Positions 2,367 through 11,567 of a DNA stretch of 64,000 nucleotides are shown here, piece after piece. The notes under the pieces are model-generated. The model saw only the letters and a list, made by a program, of their open reading frames with translations. It had not been told where the DNA came from and searched no databases. The stretch spans positions 12,688-76,687 of the forward strand of contig JAICYB010000004.1 of the NCBI GenBank assembly GCA_025934435.1, in the 5' to 3' direction. A program made the translations under genes and the position numbers. This stretch comes from Actinomycetes bacterium (lineage in GTDB: Bacteria; Actinomycetota; JAICYB01). Positions within the stretch are counted from its first letter, which is position 1. Each line of letters begins with the position of its first letter.

Positions 2367-2687
2367 GCCGTCGCGCAGCTTGCGACCGAGGAGCGTCTCG
2401 AGGATCTGGCGGTCGCCCGTCCAGTGCTCGGTCAGGAGCGGCTCCGGGATGCGACGGATCATCGCGCGCACGCCGACCGTGAGGACGACGAAGTCGTCCA
2501 GCTGACCGGCGATCGGGATCCAGTCCGGGATGACGTCGAACGGGAGCGCCAGGTAACCGGCGATCGCGATCAGTCCGCCGCGAACGGTCCAGGAGATGCG
2601 CTCGTCGCGCACCACGCGCCATAGCAGCCGGAGGATCTGCGGCAAGGCGAAGACAAGATCTCGTCGAGTCGCGTCACGGTCGCTCAT
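2349..2687 (-). CDS. DUF1232/YkvA-like small membrane protein
   Basis: Motif ALPFDVIPDWIPIAGQLDD typical of DUF1232; convergent 18-nt overlap with the MBL gene. Confidence 0.55.
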   Translation of the reverse strand: MSDRDATRRDLVFALPQILRLLWRVVRDERISWTVRGGLIAIAGYLALPFDVIPDWIPIAGQLDDFVVLTVGVRAMIRRIPEPLLTEHWTGDRQILETLLGRKLRDGSRNGA

Positions 2688-2737
2688 GGACGGGATGGTA
2701 CCCGGAACCTGCTGGTCTCGAATCTGTATCCTCCCGA

Positions 2738-3541
2738 GTGATGTTGACCGAAGAACGCCGGGGGCAGGTCCGCACCCGCGCGCGCGCAGCGATCGAACAG
2801 GCGACGCTCCGCAAGGACGCGTGGTGGGCCGAGCCGTTCGTCTCGATGGCCGTTCTCGGGATCTTCGTCGTCTACGCGACGTGGGCCGCGATCATCGGCA
2901 CGCACTACTACTCGGACCCGTACATCTCGCCCCTCTACGCGCCGTGCATCGCCGACCGCTGCGCGCACGTGTCGTTCCACATCATCGGATCATTCTGGCG
3001 CTGGTCGCCGGCGCTCCTGATCATCCTGTTCCCGCTCGGCTTCCGGACGACCTGCTACTTCTACCGTCGGGTCTACTACCGCGGGATGGGCATGCCGTCT
3101 GCGTGCGCGGTGCGCGAGCCGTGGCCGCGCTATCTCGGCGAGAGCAAGCGCCCGTTCATCGTCATGAACATCCACCGCTACTTCTTCTACGTCGCGTTCA
3201 TCCTCGCGCTGCTGCACTGGTCGGACTTCGTCCTGTCCTTCCACTTCAAAGCGGGATGGGGGATCGGCTTTGGGACGCTGCTCATGGGGCTCGACACGGT
3301 CCTGCTTTCGCTCTACGTCCTGTCGTGTCACGCCGGACGTCACTTCCTCGGCGGACACGTCGACAAGTTCTCGCAGGCGCCTATCCGTTACCGTCTCTGG
3401 AAGCTCTCGTCCTACTTCAACCCGAAGCACGGGCCGATCGCGTGGGCGAGTCTCGTGAGCGTCATGCTCGTCGACATCTACGTGCGGCTCCTCTCGTACG
3501 GCGTCTTCCACGACCCGCACCTCATCCTGCTGGGCAAGTGA
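2738..3541 (+). CDS. succinate dehydrogenase/fumarate reductase membrane anchor (cytochrome b-like) subunit
   Basis: Polytopic membrane protein with His-rich TM segments immediately upstream of sdhA/sdhB; mycobacterial Rv0249c-type three-gene arrangement. Confidence 0.55.
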   Translation: MMLTEERRGQVRTRARAAIEQATLRKDAWWAEPFVSMAVLGIFVVYATWAAIIGTHYYSDPYISPLYAPCIADRCAHVSFHIIGSFWRWSPALLIILFPLGFRTTCYFYRRVYYRGMGMPSACAVREPWPRYLGESKRPFIVMNIHRYFFYVAFILALLHWSDFVLSFHFKAGWGIGFGTLLMGLDTVLLSLYVLSCHAGRHFLGGHVDKFSQAPIRYRLWKLSSYFNPKHGPIAWASLVSVMLVDIYVRLLSYGVFHDPHLILLGK

Positions 3542-5346
3542 TGATCGATCACGAGACGCATACCTACGACGTCGTCGTCATCGGCGCGGGTGGTGCGGGG
3601 ATGCGAGCCGCGATCGAAGCCTCCGGCAACGGCGCGAAGACGGCCCTGGTGTGCAAGTCGCTCCTCGGCAAAGCACACACGGTGATGGCCGAGGGTGGGA
3701 TCGCCGCGGCGATGGGCAACGTCTACCCGCAGGACAACTGGAAGGTGCACTTCCGCGACACCATGCGTGGCGGGAAGTTCCTCAACAACTGGCGCATGGC
3801 GCAGCTGCACGCACAAGAAGCACCGGAACGGGTGTGGGAGCTCGAGGATTGGGGCGCGCTGTTCGACCGCACGGCCGACGGCAAGATCTCGCAGCGCGAC
3901 TTCGGCGGACATCGGTACGCACGCCTGGCGCATGTCGGCGACCGTTCGGGTCTCGAGATGATCAGGACGTTGCAGCAGCACGCCGTCGGTGAGGGTCAGA
4001 TCGACGTGTTCATGGAATGCACGTTGGTCGAGCTCCTGCTCGACGATTCGGGTGCCGTCTGCGGCGCGTTCGGCTACTGGCGTCCGACGGGTGACTTCAT
4101 CTCGTTCGCCTGCAAAGCCGTCGTGATGGCGACGGGCGGGATCGGACGAGCGTGGAAGGTCACCTCGAACTCGTGGGAGTACTCGGGGGACGGCCACGCG
4201 ATGGCGCTCCGCGCCGGCGCCGAGCTCATCGACATGGAATTCATCCAGTTCCACCCGACCGGGATGGTGTGGCCGCCTTCTATCCGCGGGGCGCTCGTGA
4301 CCGAGAGCGTTCGCGGCGACGGTGGGATCCTCACGAACAAGTTCGGCGACCGCTTCATGTTCAACTACGTCCCCGACCTGTTCCGCAAAGAGACGGCCGA
4401 AACCGAGGAGGAAGCCGACCTCTGGTACAAGGACCACTCCGCGGCTCGCCGTACACCCGACCTCCTCCCGCGCGACGAGGTAGCGCGAGCGATCAACGCC
4501 GAGGTGAAGGCCGGACGGGGCTCCCCGCACGGCGGTGTGTACCTCGACGTGTCGTCGCGTCTGTCCGCGGACGTGATCAAGCGCCGGCTCCCGTCGATGT
4601 ACCACCAGTTCCTCGAACTTGCCGACGTCGACATCACGAAGGAGCCGATGGAGATCGCTCCGACGTGTCACTACACGATGGGCGGCATCCGCGTCGATGC
4701 CGAAACCGAAGCGACGACCATCCCCGGCCTGTTCGCATGCGGCGAATCCGCGGGCGGCATGCACGGCGCGAACCGGCTCGGCGGGAACTCTCTTTCCGAT
4801 CTGCTGGTGTTCGGCAAGCGTGCGGGCGAGCACGCCGCGCAGTACGCGGCCGGCAAGGCCGGCGCGCCCACGATCCCGGAAACGCAGGTGACCGACGCCA
4901 CACGCGAAGTCCTCGCACCGTTCGAGCGCGTCGACGGTGAGAACCCCTACACGGTTCTGAACGACATGCAGGAGATGCTGCACAACCTTGTCGGCATCAT
5001 CCGGATCGAAGCCGAGCTGAAGGAAGCGCTCGAGCGCTTCGTCGAGCTCAAGGAGCGGGCCGGAAAGGTTCGCGTGATCGGGACGCGCGCGTACAACCCG
5101 GGATGGAACACGGCGATCGACCTGCGCAACATGCTCATGGTCGCCGAGGGCTGCACGAAAGCGGCGCTCGCCCGGCGGGAGAGCCGCGGCGGTCACACCC
5201 GCGAGGACTTCCCGGTCACCGATCCCGAGTTCGCGAAGATCAACCATGCGGTTCGCTACGAGAACGGCGAGGTGACGATCACACCGACACCGTTGCCGCA
5301 GATGCCGGACGATCTGCGTCAGATCGTCGAGGAGAACCCAGAGTGA
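3541..5346 (+). CDS. sdhA: succinate dehydrogenase/fumarate reductase flavoprotein subunit
   Basis: N-terminal FAD Rossmann motif (VVVIGAGGAGMRAAIEA); covalent-FAD His region; conserved active-site Arg/His residues; TGATG overlap with the anchor gene. The track ORF 2596..5346 is an upstream over-extension. Confidence 0.9.
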   Translation: MIDHETHTYDVVVIGAGGAGMRAAIEASGNGAKTALVCKSLLGKAHTVMAEGGIAAAMGNVYPQDNWKVHFRDTMRGGKFLNNWRMAQLHAQEAPERVWELEDWGALFDRTADGKISQRDFGGHRYARLAHVGDRSGLEMIRTLQQHAVGEGQIDVFMECTLVELLLDDSGAVCGAFGYWRPTGDFISFACKAVVMATGGIGRAWKVTSNSWEYSGDGHAMALRAGAELIDMEFIQFHPTGMVWPPSIRGALVTESVRGDGGILTNKFGDRFMFNYVPDLFRKETAETEEEADLWYKDHSAARRTPDLLPRDEVARAINAEVKAGRGSPHGGVYLDVSSRLSADVIKRRLPSMYHQFLELADVDITKEPMEIAPTCHYTMGGIRVDAETEATTIPGLFACGESAGGMHGANRLGGNSLSDLLVFGKRAGEHAAQYAAGKAGAPTIPETQVTDATREVLAPFERVDGENPYTVLNDMQEMLHNLVGIIRIEAELKEALERFVELKERAGKVRVIGTRAYNPGWNTAIDLRNMLMVAEGCTKAALARRESRGGHTREDFPVTDPEFAKINHAVRYENGEVTITPTPLPQMPDDLRQIVEENPE

Positions 5347-6161: not shown

Positions 6162-6377
6162 TCAGCCCGCGAGGGCTTCGTCCTCGCCGTCCGGCTGGAA
6201 GATCTCTTCGATCTGCAGTTCGAAGAGGCTCGCGATCTTGAAGGCGAGTGGAAGGCTCGGGTCGTACTTCCCCTTCTCGATCGACACGATCGTTTGACGA
6301 GAAACGTCGAGCCGCTCCGCGAGATCGGCCTGCGTCCAATCACGCTCGGCGCGTAGGACCGGCAGCCGGTTCCTCAT
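6162..6377 (-). CDS. XRE-family HTH transcriptional regulator (small, Cro/C1-type)
   Basis: Motif QADLAERLDVSRQTIVSIEKGKYDPSLPLAFKIASLFELQIEEIF; probable start MRNRL internal to the track ORF 6162..6416; start overlaps the upstream membrane-protein stop. Confidence 0.7.
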   Translation of the reverse strand: MRNRLPVLRAERDWTQADLAERLDVSRQTIVSIEKGKYDPSLPLAFKIASLFELQIEEIFQPDGEDEALAG

Positions 6378-6943
6378 GTCCGCATGAGCCAGAGGACGAC
6401 GTACGTCACGAGCCACACGCCGGCGACGACCGGCACCACGATGAGCAGATCGGGGGCCGCGAAGTGGTAGACGCGGCCGAGGATCGCATAGCCGAGCCCG
6501 CCGACCACGAACGCGCCGAGCGCGACGACGGCTGATCGCGCGAGGACCGTACGTTGGAACTCGTCGCCCTGCTGTTCGACGAGGACTGCGAGGAGCGGGA
6601 GCGGCGCCAGGAAGAAGAGGACGGCGACGGCTCCAAGAACCGCATGGCTGGCGACGTTCGGATGACGTCCGATGGTGACGCCCAGCCCTACCGCAAAGAT
6701 GAAGGTCGACACCAACGTGAGAGGCTCGATCTTGCGCCCGCGACGACGACCGACGACCGACTGCGTCGTCATGCCGAGCAGGAAGAACGCGTCTCCGGCG
6801 ATCAAGAATCGAGCACCGCGGATCGAGTTGTCCGGCGCCGCAGCACCGAGACCGAGAAGGACGACAGCGACGGCGAAGATCACGAGGAACATCGCGCGCT
6901 CGGGCGCGCTGAACCGTCGCGAAGTGTCGCGCTGCTCGCTCAT
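6374..6943 (-). CDS. polytopic membrane protein; paralogue of the 7697..10243 family
   Basis: About 6 predicted TM helices and no soluble domain. Shares a C-terminal block with four upstream paralogues: DE.QR...S..AF...P.L....W. Confidence 0.55.
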   Translation of the reverse strand: MSEQRDTSRRFSAPERAMFLVIFAVAVVLLGLGAAAPDNSIRGARFLIAGDAFFLLGMTTQSVVGRRRGRKIEPLTLVSTFIFAVGLGVTIGRHPNVASHAVLGAVAVLFFLAPLPLLAVLVEQQGDEFQRTVLARSAVVALGAFVVGGLGYAILGRVYHFAAPDLLIVVPVVAGVWLVTYVVLWLMRT

Positions 6944-7629
6944 GCCGGCTCGATCAGATAGAGATGCCGCTGGCCGACGCCCTTGAGGTCGTGCGAGCCG
7001 GCGTCCTTCAGCGGTTCGTCCGTCGCCGTCGCCGTGGCCTCGGAAACGAGGATCTGCCCGCCCTTCGCCGCACTACAGACGCGGGCCGCTTCGTGGACCG
7101 CGAGACCAACGAAGCGGTTGCCGACAGCGAAGGCTTCGCCCGTGTGGATCCCGATGCGGATCTTCACCTGCGCGCCGCGCGGCCAAGATTCCGCGGCGAT
7201 CGCGCGTTGCGCCGCGAGCGCCGCCGCCATCGCATCTTCCGGACGTTCGAACGCGGCGAAGCTCGCGTCCCCCGAATCGTCGACGACGCGCCCACCGTGG
7301 GATGTCAGCGCCTCGATGAGGATCTCGCGGTGTCGTCGCAGGACGTCGACGTAATCTTCGCCGAGCTCGCTCGCGAGCGCCGTCGACTCCACGATGTCTG
7401 TCATCACGAATGTGGCGGTTGTCCGTTCGGTGTCTTCGGACGCCGCCGGGAAGATGTCCTCGACCGCTACGCGGAAGAAGCGAGCAAGTTCCTTCGCGAG
7501 CGGGAGGCTCGGATCGTACTTGCCCTTCTCGATCGAGACGATCGTCTGGCGCGAGACGTTGACGGCATCGGCGAGATCGGCCTGCGCGATGTCGCGCCGC
7601 GTCCTGAAGGCGGCAAGTCGGTTGAGCAT
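6940..7629 (-). CDS. XRE-HTH / class-III nucleotide cyclase fusion protein
   Basis: N-terminal HTH nearly identical to the 6162 regulator (VSRQTIVSIEKGKYDPSLPLA). C-terminal ~155 aa carry adenylate/guanylate cyclase catalytic-domain hallmarks (FVMTDIVEST...DDSGD...RIGIHTGEAFAVGNRFVGLAVHEAARV). ATGA overlap with the downstream membrane gene. Confidence 0.7.
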   Translation of the reverse strand: MLNRLAAFRTRRDIAQADLADAVNVSRQTIVSIEKGKYDPSLPLAKELARFFRVAVEDIFPAASEDTERTTATFVMTDIVESTALASELGEDYVDVLRRHREILIEALTSHGGRVVDDSGDASFAAFERPEDAMAAALAAQRAIAAESWPRGAQVKIRIGIHTGEAFAVGNRFVGLAVHEAARVCSAAKGGQILVSEATATATDEPLKDAGSHDLKGVGQRHLYLIEPA

Positions 7630-7696
7630 CAGGCCTCCGCCACCCGGACGGCAGCTTGGTCGATGAGCTCCGTCCGTCTGCGGTGCGTCCGGCGGA

Positions 7697-8314
7697 TCAC
7701 ATGCGCCTCTTCAGGACGAACAACGCGGCGAACCAAGCAACCGCTGCGGTGATGAAGACGTATGACGGCTCGAGCTTCGGGCCGATGTTCGAAGACTGCA
7801 GGAACGCGAACACCATCACGACCGCGAGCGTCGCGAGGAACGCGAATGCGAGGGAACCGTTGACGAGGGCGCGCTGACGCTCGTCCTCCGAGCGGCGCAA
7901 GCGGTACACACCGATGCCGACCGAAACGACGAGGCACAACAAGATCACGAGCGAGAACGCGGTCAACCACGCCGGCCGGCCGTGCGCGTAGTTCGCCGTC
8001 GCGCGGTCGAACGCGAGGAAGAGCGAGAGTGAGAAGCTCACGGTGATCGAACCGTCCGGCCGTGCCGTTGCTTGACGAGCCTTGCGCCAGAGATCCGCCA
8101 TATCGACCACGCCGCTGACGAAGAACCCCAGCGCCATCAGCCCGCGGTCGCGCGGTGTCCCTGTCTTGGATCCCGTCGCGATCCATGCGATGAGCGCCGC
8201 GACGAAGGCGCCATCACCGACGACCTTCACGAGCCATCCGAGCAGGCTCCGTTTGTCCTTCGCGACGTCGGTACTCACATGCGCCTCTGCAGGACGAACC
8301 ACGCACCGAACCAC
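7697..8314 (-). CDS. paralogous polytopic membrane protein 1
   Basis: 205-aa ORF, 4-5 TM helices; C-terminus ...SEDERQRALVNGSLAFAF...WFAALFVLKRRM is conserved with its neighbours. Confidence 0.5.
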   Translation of the reverse strand: MVRCVVRPAEAHVSTDVAKDKRSLLGWLVKVVGDGAFVAALIAWIATGSKTGTPRDRGLMALGFFVSGVVDMADLWRKARQATARPDGSITVSFSLSLFLAFDRATANYAHGRPAWLTAFSLVILLCLVVSVGIGVYRLRRSEDERQRALVNGSLAFAFLATLAVVMVFAFLQSSNIGPKLEPSYVFITAAVAWFAALFVLKRRM

Positions 8315-9069
8315 GACGTTGTCGCCGTCGCGATCACGTAGTCGGGACGTAGCGACGGCCCCACCTTCAGCGCTTCGAGCAACGAGAACGTGAGGACGAG
8401 GGTCATCGTCACGATGAAAGCGAACGCCAACGATCGGTTCGCGATCAGCGACTCTCGCTCGTCACTGCGCCGGATCCATTCGATCACGGCGTACGGGGTC
8501 GTTGCGATGAGCCCGACCACCAACACGATGCCGAGGGCCGTGAGCCACGCCGGCTGCGATCGATGTGGCTGGGGCGTCGTGAGCTCGAAGGCCATCGCGA
8601 GCCCAGCGAGTGCCGCGACCCCAACGGGAACGTGCCGACGGTTTCGCGATAGGGCGGAACCCTTGGAAGATCGAGCGGACGCGATCTCGGCCCCCGACCA
8701 CATGAGGAAGCAAATCGCGCCGGCGAGACGGATCAACGAATCGTGCCCATTCCCGGACTCCCACGCGTACGCCGCAAGCCCGGCGAGGAACGCGTACTCA
8801 CTGACGAACCTGAGGACGTTCTTGCCGAGCGACGCCGTGCCTCGTGAGCGCTTCTCGCCCGTGCGCGCGCGACTCCGAACGGCTCGCGCCCATCCCGCCG
8901 CGTATCCCGCGACGATGATGGTGGCGATGCCGGTATAGGACGCAGCGTCCCGATTCTTCTGCGGGACGAGGAACCCGACCATCGCCGCGAGACCGACGAC
9001 GACCGCGCCGGTCAGGAGGATGAAGATCAGGCGGTCCTCAGCCCAGAAGTCGCGGATCTTCGCCTTCAC
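8275..9069 (-). CDS. paralogous polytopic membrane protein 2
   Basis: Track ORF 8275..9675 is over-extended. A GTG at 9069 overlaps the upstream stop (GTGA); an alternative ATG lies near 8982. C-terminus ...SDERESLIANRSLAFAF...WFGAWFVLQRRM. Confidence 0.45.
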   Translation of the reverse strand: MKAKIRDFWAEDRLIFILLTGAVVVGLAAMVGFLVPQKNRDAASYTGIATIIVAGYAAGWARAVRSRARTGEKRSRGTASLGKNVLRFVSEYAFLAGLAAYAWESGNGHDSLIRLAGAICFLMWSGAEIASARSSKGSALSRNRRHVPVGVAALAGLAMAFELTTPQPHRSQPAWLTALGIVLVVGLIATTPYAVIEWIRRSDERESLIANRSLAFAFIVTMTLVLTFSLLEALKVGPSLRPDYVIATATTSWFGAWFVLQRRM

Positions 9070-9665
9070 GAGTACCTCCGCCGGAAGACCAGCGACGAGA
9101 CGACCCACGACACCATCCCGACGGTGAAGACGAGCCACATCGAAAGCTTCGGTGCTTTGAACCACGCTTCGAGGAGGCCGTACGACAGCGCGAAAAGCAT
9201 CGTGACGAAGAAGGCGATCGTGATCGACTCCGTGAACATGAGCCGGTCGACCTCTTTGCTCCGACGACCTCCAAGGAACGCGCTCAGCGTTCCGGCCACA
9301 GACGACACGATCGTCCCCGCGGCGATCGCGATGAGCGCCCACGTCGGCTGCGGCTTGTGCGACTGAAAGATGCTCCCCGCGCCGACGAGGACGAAGTAGA
9401 AGCCGAAGCAGGCGAGGCTTATCGAACGAGTCGCGGCGATGAGCGTCGAGACGAGCAGCGCCCCGATCACCATCGCGACGATCGCGACGGGCGTTCGCCA
9501 GGAGCGCGGGCCGAAGCCGGCGATCAGGCCGAGCGCCAAGCCGGAGATACCGACGGTGAACGTCAGGTATCGGAACCAGGCTCCAGCGAACTGACCGGCT
9601 CGGTACGCCTTGCTCGGTTCGTTCACGAGTACCGCCGCCTGAACAACCATTCGAGCGTCGCCCAC
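9066..9665 (-). CDS. paralogous polytopic membrane protein 3
   Basis: 199-aa ORF; C-terminus ...VDRLMFTESITIAFF...VSSLVFRRRYS. Confidence 0.5.
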   Translation of the reverse strand: MGDARMVVQAAVLVNEPSKAYRAGQFAGAWFRYLTFTVGISGLALGLIAGFGPRSWRTPVAIVAMVIGALLVSTLIAATRSISLACFGFYFVLVGAGSIFQSHKPQPTWALIAIAAGTIVSSVAGTLSAFLGGRRSKEVDRLMFTESITIAFFVTMLFALSYGLLEAWFKAPKLSMWLVFTVGMVSWVVSSLVFRRRYS

Positions 9666-10207
9666 ACCACCGCACCGAACACGGGTACCCAGATCAACCC
9701 GACCCGCGGCACTTTCACGAACAGCTCGAGCGCGCCGTAGATCCCCGCCGCGAGCACGGTCACGAAGAACGCGGCGGATGTCGCGTCGCTGAACAACCGC
9801 TGTTCTAGCTCGCGCACACGGCGCGAATAGAACAACGCGGTCCCGATCGCGAGGCTAAAGACCAACATGAAACTCACGGCTTCGAGCGCTCCCGACGTCG
9901 CCGTGTGGTGCCCGGCCGACTTATCGAGGACGCCGGCGATGATCCCGGGAGTCACCACAACGGGGATCAGGAGGCCGAGCCACGAACGCTTGTAGAGCGC
10001 ATAGCCGACGAAGGCCAACAAGATCACCCCGCCGACGATCCCTCCGGCGAGCGGATAGCGAGTCACCAGCGGCTCGAAGTGGCCGAGCCGGGCGATGATC
10101 ACCGCGGCGAGCGCTACCCCGCACGCAGCCCCGATGAAGAACGAGATCCGGTTCGAGTCCCGCTCGGACGGCGATGCCTTCTGCTTGCCCTGCCCTTCGT
10201 CCCCCAT
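9623..10207 (-). CDS. paralogous polytopic membrane protein 4
   Basis: C-terminus ...ELEQRLFSDATSAAFF...LEWLFRRRYS. Start is probably MGDEGQGK (ATG ~10207) rather than the track start 10243, because a TTGACA promoter-like hexamer lies inside the extended N-terminus. Confidence 0.45.
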   Translation of the reverse strand: MGDEGQGKQKASPSERDSNRISFFIGAACGVALAAVIIARLGHFEPLVTRYPLAGGIVGGVILLAFVGYALYKRSWLGLLIPVVVTPGIIAGVLDKSAGHHTATSGALEAVSFMLVFSLAIGTALFYSRRVRELEQRLFSDATSAAFFVTVLAAGIYGALELFVKVPRVGLIWVPVFGAVVWATLEWLFRRRYS

Positions 10208-10316
10208 GAACGCGAGAGTAAAGCAGGCTTTACTTCTTGTCAAGGCTCCTTTACGTCAGATCGCGACTTCGGTGCCTCGCCGTAGCAGAGCACCGTTGAA
10301 GCACCGAAGTCAGGGG

Positions 10317-11567
10317 TTAGGCCATCCGGTCGACGATGGCCTGTCCGAATTCGGAGCACTTCACCGGGTCGACCTGCGGCTGCATCAGCCGGGCGAAGTC
10401 GTAGGTCACGACCTTCTCCGCGATCGCGCGCTCGATGCCGTGCTCGATGAGATCGGCGGCGGCGTCCCAGCCCATGTGACGGAACATCATCACCCCGGAC
10501 AGGATCACGCTCGACGGGTTCACCTTGTCCTGGCCCGCGTACTTCGGCGCCGTGCCGTGCGTCGCCTCGAAGATGGCGTGCCCCGTGTCGTAGTTGATGT
10601 TGCCGCCCGGCGCGATGCCGATCCCCCCGACCTGCGCCGCGAGCGCGTCGGACAGGTAGTCGCCGTTCAGGTTCATCGTCGCGATGACGTCGAACTCATC
10701 GGGACGGGTCAGCACCTGTTGCAGCGTGATGTCCGCGATGTTGTCCCACACGAGTATCTGACCCTCGGGTGGTTTGCCGCCGCAGTCGTCCCACGTCACG
10801 GCGCGGCCCTCGAACTCCTTGTGCACGAGCCCGTAGCCCCAGTCACGGAACGCGCCTTCGGTGAACTTCATGATGTTGCCCTTGTGGACGAGGCACACAT
10901 TGCGCCGCTTGTAACGCAAGGCGTATTCGATCGCTGCGCGGACGAGGCGCTCCGTCCCTTCGCGCGACACCGGCTTGATGCCGATCCCCGACGTGTTCGG
11001 GAAACGGATCTTGTTCACGCCCATCTCGTCCTGGAGGAACTTGATCACCTTCTGCGCTTCCGGTGACTCCGCTTCCCACTCGACGCCGGCGTAGATGTCC
11101 TCGGTGTTCTCGCGGAAGATCACCATGTCGACCTTGCCCGGCTCCTTCACCGGCGACGGCACACCCTGGTACCAGCGGACGGGGCGCAGACACACGTACA
11201 GGTCGAGGATCTGGCGGAGCGCGACGTTCAGCGAGCGGATACCGCCGCCGACGGGCGTCGTGAGCGGACCCTTGATGCCGACGAGATAGGTGCGGAACGC
11301 TTCGATCGTGTCGTCCGGCAGCCAGTTTTCGAAGCGGTCGAAGGCGTCCTGTCCGGCGTGCACCTCGAACCAATTGATCTTCTTCTTGCCCCCGAAGGCT
11401 TTCTCGACGGCGGCATCGAAGACGAGCTGCGACGCATGCCAGATGTCCGGACCCGTCCCGTCCCCGCGGATGAACGGCATGATCGGGTCGTCGGGCACCT
11501 GCAGGACGCCGTCCGAGATCGAGATGGTGCCGCCCTGCGCAGGCGGGGTTACGTCTTTGAACGCCAT
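10317..11567 (-). CDS. icd: NADP-dependent isocitrate dehydrogenase
   Basis: 416 aa; full-length match to the prokaryotic dimeric IDH pattern ([34 protein letters not shown]). Confidence 0.95.

What the first reader, a model, noticed from the sequence alone, without database searches (positions are those of the whole stretch)
6940..7629. XRE-type HTH fused to a class-III nucleotide-cyclase catalytic domain
The first 70 aa are a near copy of the neighbouring stand-alone regulator, including the SRQTIVSIEKGKYDPSLPLA recognition helix. The remaining ~155 aa carry the Asp-Asp metal site and the RIGIHTG...GNRFVGLAVHEAARV arm of adenylate/guanylate cyclases. A DNA-binding protein that itself synthesises a cyclic nucleotide is an unusual design. 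By eye, the position where purine-specifying Lys normally precedes the second metal Asp (K..GD) reads VDDSGD. If so, substrate specificity could be non-canonical or the domain could be regulatory.
Basis: partly seen in the sequence, partly recalled or inferred. Interest (0 to 1): 0.6.

Follow-up and report, generated by a model that had tools for sequence, protein, structure and literature searches.

The report
XRE repressor fused to cyclase domain
A soil actinobacterium encodes a small DNA-binding repressor fused to a nucleotide-cyclase domain with an unusual base pocket, inside a self-regulated operon of duplicated membrane proteins; the fusion is real and conserved, but it is a variation on known designs and its chemistry is untested.

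Summary
Window 6940-7629 (- strand) encodes a 229-aa protein with a CylR2-like XRE helix-turn-helix (aa 5-58) joined by a roughly 10-residue linker to a minimal class III cyclase domain (aa 71-227). Its closest relatives are mycobacterial Rv1900c/LipJ and Ma1120.

The fusion is not an artefact. About 40 metagenomic orthologues (47-83% identity) share the architecture, and both domains are under purifying selection.

Catalytic residues:
- Kept and invariant: both metal Asp (D78, D121) and the transition-state Arg (R183).
- Replaced: Lys by D117, Asp by R172, Asn by H179. Rv1900c has the same His, and the active cyclase Ma1120 has Ala there.
- This Asp/Arg/His trio also occurs in 53 related cyclase domains with other architectures, so it marks a clade, not the fusion.

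The gene lies in an accessory operon between icd and sdh: 1-8 paralogous ~6-TM proteins, the fusion, then a 71-aa stand-alone paralogous HTH. The operon follows a conserved promoter carrying two GTAAAG-N4-CTT(T/G)AC palindromes over the -35 and -10 boxes.

Best reading: a CylR2-type autorepressor whose cyclase domain dimerises, binds NTP-metal and probably cyclises it, with unknown base preference. A non-catalytic sensor domain is the main rival. New variant of a known kind; moderate interest.

The parts
6940..7629 (-). HTH-CHD fusion gene (229 aa)
   Evidence: ORF; Pfam HTH_3 + Guanylate_cyc; about 40 full-length orthologues; AF2 model with mean pLDDT 92.7
7456..7617 (-). CylR2-like XRE helix-turn-helix domain (aa 5-58)
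   Evidence: Pfam HTH_3 E 3.3e-12; PDB 9k3w E 7e-16 and CylR2 1utx E 1e-10; five predicted helices
6949..7419 (-). Class III cyclase homology domain (aa 71-227). Metal Asp D78 and D121, R158, D117 (Lys position), R172 (Asp position), H179 (Asn position), R183
   Evidence: PF00211 E 6e-11; Ma1120 E 2e-19 and Rv1900c E 6e-17; Foldseek Rv1900c TM 0.90, rmsd 1.8 A; all six canonical positions invariant in 31 orthologues
6162..6377 (-). Stand-alone paralogous HTH regulator (71 aa), last gene of the operon
   Evidence: HTH_3 E 4e-15; 61% identical to the fusion's HTH; 73-85% conserved across loci, more than the fusion's HTH; ATGA overlap with the upstream gene (read from the sequence)
6374..6943 (-). 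Membrane protein paralogue TM-F (189 aa, about 6 TM), translationally coupled to the fusion gene (ATGA overlap)
   Evidence: only a weak DUF2178 hit (E 0.034)
7697..8314 (-). Membrane protein paralogue TM-D (about 205 aa; start uncertain), immediately upstream of the fusion gene
   Evidence: orthologue in L001 at 7451-7993 lies directly upstream of the fusion
8275..9060 (-). Membrane protein paralogue TM-C (start uncertain)
   Evidence: C-terminal RRSDERE...RRM motif aligns with the other paralogues; hydropathy
9066..9665 (-). Membrane protein paralogue TM-B (about 199 aa; start uncertain)
9623..10207 (-). Membrane protein paralogue TM-A (194 aa), first gene of the operon
10215..10243 (-). Promoter: -35 TTGACA (10238-10243), 17-nt spacer, -10 TACTCT (10215-10220)
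   Evidence: Read from the sequence; invariant in five loci. Not called by the E. coli-type scan because the -10 matches only TANNNT
10218..10233 (.). Operator O2: palindrome GTAAAG-N4-CTTTAC between the -35 and -10 boxes
   Evidence: The strict 18-mer has a single match in 64 kb, 0.02 expected; conserved upstream of the first TM gene in L001, L004, L005 and L006
10239..10254 (.). Operator O1: GTAAAG-N4-CTTGAC overlapping the -35 box, centre 21 bp from O2
   Evidence: invariant in all five loci

Best explanation
The gene encodes a two-domain, one-component regulator-enzyme. An N-terminal CylR2-like XRE HTH is tethered by a roughly 10-residue linker to a minimal class III (LipJ/Ma1120-type) cyclase homology domain.

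It is co-transcribed with 1-8 paralogous ~6-TM membrane proteins and a second, stand-alone HTH paralogue. Transcription starts from a promoter whose -35 and -10 boxes are each overlapped by a GTAAAG-N4-CTT(T/G)AC palindrome.

Proposed mechanism (inferred):
1. Both HTH proteins bind these operators as dimers and autorepress the operon, as CylR2 does at its promoter.
2. The cyclase domain forms the head-to-tail homodimer typical of the fold. This gives the fusion a second dimer interface and two composite nucleotide sites.
3. The chemistry-bearing residues are invariant (two metal Asp, the S82/T83 phosphate loop, R158, R183). The domain therefore most likely binds Mg/Mn-NTP and cyclises it.
4. 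Base preference is set by an invariant Asp117/Arg172 pocket that matches neither the ATP (Lys/Asp) nor the GTP (Glu/Cys-Ser-Gly) code.
5. Cyclase-domain dimerisation and operator occupancy are coupled, so nucleotide binding or turnover and repression influence each other.
6. The membrane paralogues are the likely signal input, by analogy with CylR1/CylR2.

Shown here: domain identity, fold, residue map, conservation, operon structure and the conserved palindromes. Inferred: DNA binding, dimerisation, catalysis, coupling and the role of the membrane proteins.
For: - Domains: Pfam hits for both.
- Closest solved relatives are active cyclases: Ma1120 (E 2e-19) and Rv1900c (E 6e-17). The AF2 model (pLDDT 92.7) superposes on the Rv1900c cyclase domain at TM 0.90 and 1.8 A.
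- All six canonical active-site positions are invariant in 31 orthologues, although only 38 of 164 domain columns are invariant. The chance of that is about 1e-4.
- dN/dS is 0.18-0.21 for the cyclase domain and 0.12-0.26 for the HTH against the three closer loci (L001, L005, L006); it is about 0.5 against the distant L004.
- The Asn is dispensable in this subfamily. Ma1120 has Ala164, and A164N kills activity (PMC4215837). Rv1900c has His and is active (PMC4886424), and the query shares its VHxxARVC motif.
- Operon: ATGA overlaps; the same gene order in five loci spanning 47-80% protein identity.
- Operators: invariant dual palindromes over -35 and -10. The strict 18-mer matches once in the 64-kb window against 0.02 expected.
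- The HTH is homologous to CylR2. CylR2 represses by binding its promoter and depends on the membrane protein CylR1 (PMC3709268).
Against: - Three of the six canonical residues are replaced.
- No member of the Asp/Arg/His clade has, to my knowledge, been assayed.
- The putative gamma-phosphate Lys (K214 in LKGV) is not conserved in the family.
- No cNMP receptor (CNBD) was found nearby, though only by a crude tblastn with E. coli CRP.
- The cassette is absent from close relatives, so any messenger it makes is not part of core physiology.
- Dimerisation, DNA binding and catalysis are all untested.
- The E. coli-type promoter scan did not call the promoter.
Confidence: 0.5

Rival explanations
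1. Pseudo-cyclase sensor. The cyclase domain no longer turns over substrate in a meaningful way. It serves as a dimerisation and NTP- or ligand-binding module that tunes the DNA affinity of the HTH. This would make the protein a one-component regulator that reads nucleotide status, or a signal passed on by the membrane proteins.
For: - Both base-specifying residues and the Asn are replaced.
- The gamma-phosphate Lys is not conserved.
- No cNMP receptor was seen in the window.
- The charge-swapped pair (K/D to D/R) could form an internal salt bridge in the base pocket (inference).
- A CylR2-type HTH needs a dimer to bind palindromes, which a cyclase domain would supply (inference).
Against: - A pure dimerisation module has no need for invariant metal-binding Asp residues, the S/T phosphate loop, R158 and R183 across 47-100% identity.
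- The nearest characterised homologues, which carry comparable substitutions, are active enzymes (PMC4215837, PMC4886424).
- Stand-alone CylR2-type HTHs dimerise by themselves (own knowledge of the 1utx structure).
Confidence: 0.35
2. Decoy or anti-repressor. The fusion shares nearly the same recognition helix as the stand-alone HTH. It competes for, or heterodimerises at, the same operators and so modulates repression by the stand-alone protein. The cyclase domain supplies bulk or regulation. This is not exclusive of the two readings above.
For: - The stand-alone HTH is far more conserved across loci (73-85%) than the fusion's HTH (53-61%), as expected if the former is the primary operator binder.
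- Both genes are always present together.
- There are two operators 21 bp apart.
Against: There is no direct evidence. The fusion's HTH keeps all family-invariant DNA-contact positions and is under purifying selection.
Confidence: 0.1
3. Pycsar-like anti-phage module. The cyclase makes cCMP or cUMP on infection, and the adjacent membrane proteins are pore-forming effectors.
For: - Weak PycC HMM hits (best E 1e-6, 26 bits).
- Neighbouring membrane proteins.
- The cassette is accessory and varies in copy number.
Against: - PycC scores are far below those for LipJ (87.8 bits) and the generic PF00211 model.
- The membrane proteins have no PADLOC hit and no cyclic-nucleotide-binding domain, which PycTM effectors require (PMC11224242).
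- The same type of membrane protein is also paired with the cyclase-less HTH.
- The locus is syntenic between housekeeping genes, with no mobile-element genes seen among the neighbours listed.
Confidence: 0.04
4. Artefactual fusion caused by a frameshift, misassembly or a wrong gene call.
For: None. One relative (P0045) does look frameshifted.
Against: About 40 independent assemblies from JGI, ENA, Logan and NCBI give the same 226-245-aa fusion. Linker length is conserved, dN/dS is about 0.2 in both domains, and the AF2 model is confident across both.
Confidence: 0.01

Closest known systems
Rv1900c (LipJ) cyclase homology domain, Mycobacterium tuberculosis (PDB 1ybt/1ybu)
   Same: Best structural match (TM 0.90, rmsd 1.8 A, 35% identity) and best NCBIfam hit. 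It shares the short 'arm', the GxAVHxxARVC motif with His in place of the catalytic Asn, and a non-Lys residue at the Lys position.
   Different: Rv1900c has an N-terminal alpha/beta-hydrolase domain, not an HTH. Its base pair is Asn/Asp, against Asp/Arg here. The query scores 87.8 bits against an equivalog cut-off of 800, so it is not an orthologue.
Ma1120 adenylyl cyclase, Mycobacterium avium (PDB 4wp3 and others)
   Same: Best sequence match among solved structures (E 2e-19). It is a minimal cyclase domain that lacks the canonical Asn (Ala164) yet is active (PMC4215837).
   Different: Ma1120 keeps the canonical Lys101/Asp157 ATP pair and has no DNA-binding domain.
CylR2/CylR1 regulator pair of the Enterococcus faecalis cytolysin operon
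   Same: The HTH domain is homologous to CylR2 (1utx, E 1e-10). A small HTH gene sits next to a multi-pass membrane protein gene, and palindromic operators overlap the promoter (PMC3709268).
   Different: CylR2 is a 66-aa stand-alone protein. No homology between the TM paralogues here and CylR1 was shown. There is no lantibiotic cluster here, and one of the two HTH paralogues carries a cyclase domain.
CHD+LuxR regulators of mycobacteria (Rv0386, Rv1358, Rv2488c)
   Same: One polypeptide carries a class III cyclase domain and an HTH DNA-binding domain. Rv0386 is an active cyclase with a non-canonical substrate-selecting pair (PMC3466318).
   Different: Those proteins are large, with the cyclase domain N-terminal, a LuxR-type HTH C-terminal and a long region between them (I recall an ATPase/STAND module; not checked here). 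Here an XRE-type HTH is N-terminal and joined directly to the cyclase domain in a 229-aa protein.
Uncharacterised 'Asp/Arg/His' clade of cyclase domains (N-termini of STAND/TPR proteins, tandem-cyclase proteins, CHD-REC-GerE regulators)
   Same: The same DxxGD...R...VHxxAR active-site signature appears in 53 non-family proteins among the nearest 307 domains. The loci L008 and L009, 1010-aa proteins that by sequence look like NTPase/TPR (STAND-type) proteins (not scanned against Pfam), share VGLAVHEAARIC, although their base-pocket pair is Gly/Asp.
   Different: The partner domains differ. None of those inspected has an XRE HTH. I found no biochemical data for this clade.

Membership tests
Class III nucleotidyl cyclase catalytic domain (PF00211) | Profile match above the curated threshold | tested here: met
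   42.7 bits against a gathering score of 21.9, aa 71-227 covering profile positions 8-182 of 183
Class III nucleotidyl cyclase catalytic domain (PF00211) | Cyclase homology domain fold | tested here: met
   AF2 pLDDT 92.7; Foldseek top 50 hits are all class III cyclases, with Rv1900c at TM 0.90 and Ma1120 at 0.92
Class III nucleotidyl cyclase catalytic domain (PF00211) | Two metal-binding Asp residues | tested here: met
   D78 and D121, invariant in 31 orthologues
Class III nucleotidyl cyclase catalytic domain (PF00211) | Transition-state Arg | tested here: met
   R183 aligns with Ma1120 R168 and is invariant (PMC4215837)
Class III nucleotidyl cyclase catalytic domain (PF00211) | Transition-state Asn | tested here: not met
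   H179 instead. Rv1900c has the same His and Ma1120 has Ala164; both are active enzymes (PMC4215837, PMC4886424)
Class III nucleotidyl cyclase catalytic domain (PF00211) | Canonical base-specifying pair (Lys/Asp for ATP; Glu with Cys, Ser or Gly for GTP) | tested here: not met
   D117 and R172, invariant in the family
Class III nucleotidyl cyclase catalytic domain (PF00211) | Head-to-tail dimer and cNMP synthesis | not testable with these tools
   No multimer modelling or biochemistry was available
LipJ (NF058673 equivalog) | Full-length lipase plus cyclase above the 800-bit cut-off | tested here: not met
   87.8 bits, cyclase part only (profile 288-444 of 449)
XRE/Cro-C1 HTH (PF01381), CylR2-like subgroup | Profile match and a five-helix HTH domain | tested here: met
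   46.7 bits against 23; CylR2 1utx E 1e-10 and 9k3w E 7e-16; five helices predicted in aa 5-59
XRE/Cro-C1 HTH (PF01381), CylR2-like subgroup | Binding to a palindromic operator | tested here: inconclusive
   Conserved dual palindromes overlap the operon promoter, but binding was not tested
CylR1/CylR2-type membrane-protein plus HTH signalling pair | Small HTH gene adjacent to, and co-transcribed with, a multi-pass membrane protein gene | tested here: met
   ATGA-coupled TM-F to HTH; TM-D immediately upstream of the fusion gene (67-bp gap, no overlap); same layout in five loci
CylR1/CylR2-type membrane-protein plus HTH signalling pair | Membrane partner homologous to CylR1, or to DUF2178 | tested here: inconclusive
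   Only sub-threshold DUF2178 and DUF1129 hits. The profile search found no outside homologues. CylR1 itself was not compared.
Pycsar (PycC cyclase plus CNBD effector) | PycC-specific profile match, and an adjacent effector with a cyclic-nucleotide-binding domain | tested here: not met
   Best PycC hit is 26 bits. Neighbours have no CNBD and no PADLOC hit.
CHD+LuxR regulators (Rv0386 type) | C-terminal LuxR/GerE HTH and an intervening ATPase module | tested here: not met
   Only HTH_3 and the cyclase domain are present in 229 aa

The most novel reading that the evidence does not exclude
The invariant Asp117/Arg172/His179 pocket defines a base specificity not yet described for class III cyclases. 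Candidates are guanine read by an Asp/Arg pair, or a pyrimidine. The pocket is shared by a large uncharacterised clade of cyclase domains. In this fusion the enzyme would be gated by operator binding, or by the membrane paralogues, so that a repressor synthesises a second messenger directly at its own promoter.
Probability: 0.15. Interest if true: 0.75.

Novelty: new variant of a known kind. Interest (0 to 1): 0.45.

Why it matters
If the domain is active, this 229-aa protein would be about the simplest known link between DNA occupancy and cyclic-nucleotide synthesis. It would be a tractable model for how dimerisation gates class III cyclases.

Its Asp/Arg/His pocket is shared by many cyclase domains at the N-termini of STAND/TPR and other signalling proteins whose product is unknown. 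A single assay here could therefore assign or exclude a substrate class for a large, uncharacterised clade.

The operon also offers a compact, expandable version of the poorly understood CylR1/CylR2-type module of membrane protein plus small HTH.

If the domain is inactive, it is one more case of an enzyme fold recruited as a sensor, which is of limited general interest.

Tried and rejected
- Pycsar membership: rejected. PycC scores are weak and there is no CNBD effector.
- LipJ orthology: rejected, 87.8 bits against a cut-off of 800.
- Artefactual fusion: rejected.
- The idea that the Asp/Arg/His pocket is unique to the HTH fusion: rejected. 53 non-family domains carry it.
- Other XRE-cyclase fusions among the closest cyclase domains: ten proteins with 55-95-aa N-terminal extensions carry no Pfam HTH. 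Only two 50%-identity clusters in 1.84 billion representatives match full length. No full-length fusion was found in 185,579 GTDB species genomes.
- Homologues of the TM paralogues: the profile search returned only the input genomes, and Pfam gives no consistent family.
- Stem-loop between TM-D and the fusion gene (7630-7696): no better than shuffles, z = -0.38.
- CNBD receptor in the window: none by tblastn with E. coli CRP, a crude test.
- Exact-protein look-up of the window's own contig: not on record.
- The Rv1900c primary paper (PMC549627) and the body of PMC2447327 are not held. Rv1900c residue roles therefore rest on the alignment and on statements in PMC4886424.
- The afdb50 fold library was unavailable.
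- No paper mentions DUF2178, and none describes an XRE-class III cyclase fusion.
Full report
**1. Observation.**
The window contains an ATG-to-stop ORF at 6940-7629 on the - strand encoding 229 aa. A GGAGG ribosome-binding site lies 6 nt upstream.

Pfam places HTH_3 at aa 5-58 (E 3.3e-12) and the adenylate/guanylate cyclase catalytic domain PF00211 at aa 71-227 (E 6e-11). Both are well above the curated thresholds.

The N-terminal 66 residues are 61% identical to the regulator encoded two genes downstream. That gene is really 71 aa (6162-6377), starting at an ATGA overlap with the preceding gene. The 20-residue identical block (VSRQTIVSIEKGKYDPSLPLA) looks like a family-wide signature of CylR2-like XRE proteins rather than a sign of recent duplication. 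It is nearly invariant in both paralogues across five loci, and the HTH matches CylR2 (1utx, E 1e-10) and a PbsX-family regulator (9k3w, E 7e-16). That CylR2 carries the same block is my recollection of its sequence; no residue alignment to it was made here.

**2. The fusion is real and under selection.**
A search of 5.8 billion proteins found about 40 full-length proteins of 226-245 aa with the same two Pfam domains. They are 61-83% identical, with two more at 47%, and come from JGI, ENA, Logan and NCBI assemblies.

Against 1.84 billion 50%-identity representatives, only two clusters match the profile over its full length. None was found among 185,579 GTDB species genomes. The family is therefore small and confined to an uncultured lineage.

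The linked isocitrate dehydrogenase is 84-87% identical to proteins named 'Actinomycetota bacterium'. The window is 65.8% G+C.

Nei-Gojobori dN/dS against three orthologues is 0.12-0.26 for the HTH and 0.18-0.21 for the cyclase domain; against the most distant locus (L004) it is about 0.5.

**3. What kind of cyclase domain.**
The best matches among solved structures are:
- M. avium Ma1120 (E 2e-19)
- the cyclase domain of M. tuberculosis Rv1900c/LipJ (E 6e-17)

The best NCBIfam hit is LipJ, but at 87.8 bits against an equivalog cut-off of 800. The relationship is therefore one of subfamily, not orthology.

An AlphaFold2 model built on 39 sequences has mean pLDDT 92.7, and only the linker (aa 61-70) falls to about 73. 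Foldseek superposes it on the Rv1900c cyclase domain at TM 0.90 and 1.8 A, and on Ma1120 at TM 0.92.

**4. Catalytic residues.**
I used the Ma1120 numbering given in PMC4215837 (K101, D157, A164, R168) and the alignments.

| Canonical role | Residue here | Status |
|---|---|---|
| Metal Asp 1 | D78 | kept |
| Metal Asp 2 | D121 | kept |
| Transition-state Arg | R183 | kept |
| Purine-specifying Lys | D117 | replaced |
| Purine-specifying Asp | R172 | replaced |
| Transition-state Asn | H179 | replaced |

All six positions are invariant in 31 orthologues, as are S82/T83 of the phosphate loop and R158. Only 38 of 164 domain columns are invariant, so the chance of all six being invariant is about 1e-4.

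Loss of the Asn does not imply inactivity in this subfamily:
- Ma1120 has Ala at that position, and the A164N change abolishes activity (PMC4215837).
- Rv1900c has His and is an active cyclase (PMC4886424). The query shares its GxAVHxxARVC motif, and Rv1900c also lacks the Lys, having Asn there.

**5. The Asp/Arg/His pocket is a clade feature.**
I aligned 307 cyclase domains from all proteins retrieved to a profile of the family and tabulated the key columns. Asp/Arg/His is the commonest combination, with 94 domains. Fifty-three of the proteins carrying it lie outside the HTH family, at lengths of 133-1656 aa.

Other relatives carry Asp/Gly/His, Gly/Glu/His (the CHD-REC-GerE regulators P0048 and similar) or Gly/Asp/His. 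The last group includes the 1010-aa proteins in L008 and L009, which by sequence look like NTPase/TPR (STAND-type) proteins, though I did not scan them against Pfam.

I found no assay of any member.

**6. Genomic context.**
The gene is the fifth of seven co-directional genes between icd (10317-11567) and the convergent sdhB/sdhA:
- TM-A (9623-10207)
- TM-B (9066-9665)
- TM-C (about 8275-9060)
- TM-D (7697-8314)
- HTH-CHD (6940-7629)
- TM-F (6374-6943)
- HTH (6162-6377)

The last three are coupled by ATGA overlaps.

The five TM proteins are paralogues with about six hydrophobic segments. They share a C-terminal module, RRxDE(R/L)(E/D)R...AF...W...RR(M/YS). They match no Pfam family above threshold, with only weak DUF2178 and DUF1129 hits. 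They have no PADLOC match.

The same layout recurs in four other distinct contigs whose fusion proteins are 47-80% identical (L002 and L007 duplicate two of them). The number of TM genes varies: 1 (70 aa, L005), 2 (L001), 2 (L006), 5 (window), and 8 (L004).

In close relatives (Icd 85-87% identical) the slot is empty, or holds only an MFS transporter. The cassette is thus accessory and evolutionarily dynamic, yet none of the neighbouring genes listed at these loci is a mobile-element gene.

**7. Promoter and operators.**
Downstream of the icd stop lie an 11-bp-stem hairpin (10265-10311) and then an AT-rich island (47% G+C). The island holds TTGACA (10238-10243), a 17-nt spacer and TACTCT (10215-10220), ending 7 nt before the TM-A start codon.

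Two palindromes overlap these boxes, with centres 21 bp apart:
- O1, GTAAAG-N4-CTTGAC (10239-10254), over the -35 box
- O2, GTAAAG-N4-CTTTAC (10218-10233), running into the -10 box

The 18-mer form of O2 occurs once in 64 kb, against 0.02 expected.

The whole arrangement is invariant at the start of the cassette in all five loci, including the most distant one.

The generic E. coli-type scan does not call this promoter because the -10 matches only TANNNT. That TANNNT suffices in Actinobacteria is my own knowledge.

This is the expected target of the two HTH proteins. The stand-alone HTH is more conserved across loci (73-85%) than the fusion's HTH (53-61%), which suggests it is the primary operator binder.

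**8. Mechanism.**
Shown: a CylR2-type HTH tethered to an Rv1900c/Ma1120-type cyclase domain with an intact metal and phosphate apparatus and a conserved but non-canonical base pocket. It is co-expressed with membrane-protein paralogues and a second HTH, from a promoter that carries conserved palindromes.

Inferred:
- Both HTHs autorepress the operon, as CylR2 does at its promoter, with the membrane protein CylR1 required for induction (PMC3709268).
- The cyclase domain homodimerises head-to-tail, binds Mg/Mn-NTP and probably cyclises it.
- Dimerisation and operator occupancy are coupled.
- The TM paralogues supply the input signal.

I put about 0.5 on this reading. The main rival (about 0.35) is that the cyclase domain is a non-catalytic nucleotide- or ligand-sensing dimerisation module. 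A decoy or anti-repressor role for the fusion is compatible with either.

A Pycsar-like defence role is unlikely (about 0.04). PycC scores are weak, there is no CNBD effector, and the same TM type is paired with the cyclase-less HTH (PMC11224242).

**9. Comparison and novelty.**
Cyclase domains joined to DNA-binding domains are known. The CHD+LuxR group includes the active, non-canonically selecting Rv0386 (PMC3466318). PF01381+cyclase architectures are listed in a domain-fusion survey (PMC4886424). JGI already labels these proteins 'class 3 adenylate cyclase'.

I found no description of a characterised XRE-cyclase fusion, nor of this operon.

I classify it as a new variant of a known kind. 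It is a minimal N-terminal XRE HTH joined to a cyclase domain carrying the Asp/Arg/His pocket, embedded in an expandable CylR1/CylR2-like cassette.

Interest is moderate (0.45). The find is tractable, and it could unlock the substrate of a large cyclase clade. Nothing here contradicts current understanding, and the chemistry is untested.

Noticed in passing
window 10215-10254: Conserved promoter (TTGACA, 17 nt, TACTCT) with two palindromes, GTAAAG-N4-CTTGAC and GTAAAG-N4-CTTTAC, 21 bp apart over the -35 and -10 boxes. The arrangement is invariant in five loci whose proteins are only 47-80% identical.
   Followed up: yes
window 6374-10207; L001, L004, L005, L006: Tandem array of paralogous ~6-TM membrane proteins with a shared C-terminal RRxDE(R/L)xR...RR(M/YS) module and no Pfam family. 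Copy number ranges from 1 to 8 between related genomes.
   Followed up: partly
L025 8248-8254; L026 and L027 8245-10600: The whole cassette is missing from the icd-sdh slot in close relatives (Icd 85-87% identical). There icd abuts sdhB directly, or only an MFS gene intervenes. The cassette is therefore an accessory insertion or deletion with no mobile-element genes among the neighbours listed.
   Followed up: partly
proteins P0046-P0279; L008 and L009 6004-9066: A broad set of cyclase domains with other partners share the VHxxAR motif (STAND/TPR, tandem cyclase domains, CHD-REC-GerE). 53 of them share the full Asp/Arg/His active-site trio. I found no biochemical characterisation.
   Followed up: partly
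window 10265-10311: Hairpin with an 11-bp perfect stem (GACTTCGGTGC...GCACCGAAGTC) and a 25-nt loop immediately after the icd stop codon. It has no T-run, so it may be a terminator or an RNA-stability element separating icd from the cassette promoter.
   Followed up: no
window 7630-7696: The 67-bp gap between TM-D and the fusion gene contains an ACGGACGG/CCGTCCG stem-loop. Its folding energy is no better than shuffled sequence (z = -0.38), and the gap is only 7 bp in L001. It is probably not functional.
   Followed up: yes
protein P0045 (ENA, 42-kb contig): A 277-aa gene call starts inside the cyclase domain (MTDIVDST...), goes out of frame at the VGLAVHEAARV motif and runs on into a TM-paralogue-like sequence. 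This is probably a frameshifted or misassembled copy of the fusion plus the downstream TM gene.
   Followed up: no
window 6964-7752 (+), 7629-8186 (-), 2596-3700 (+): Long ORFs on the opposite strand or in other frames overlap the real genes. The 5' extension of the sdhA ORF is a similar case. They have no Pfam hits and are the shadow ORFs expected at 66% G+C.
   Followed up: partly
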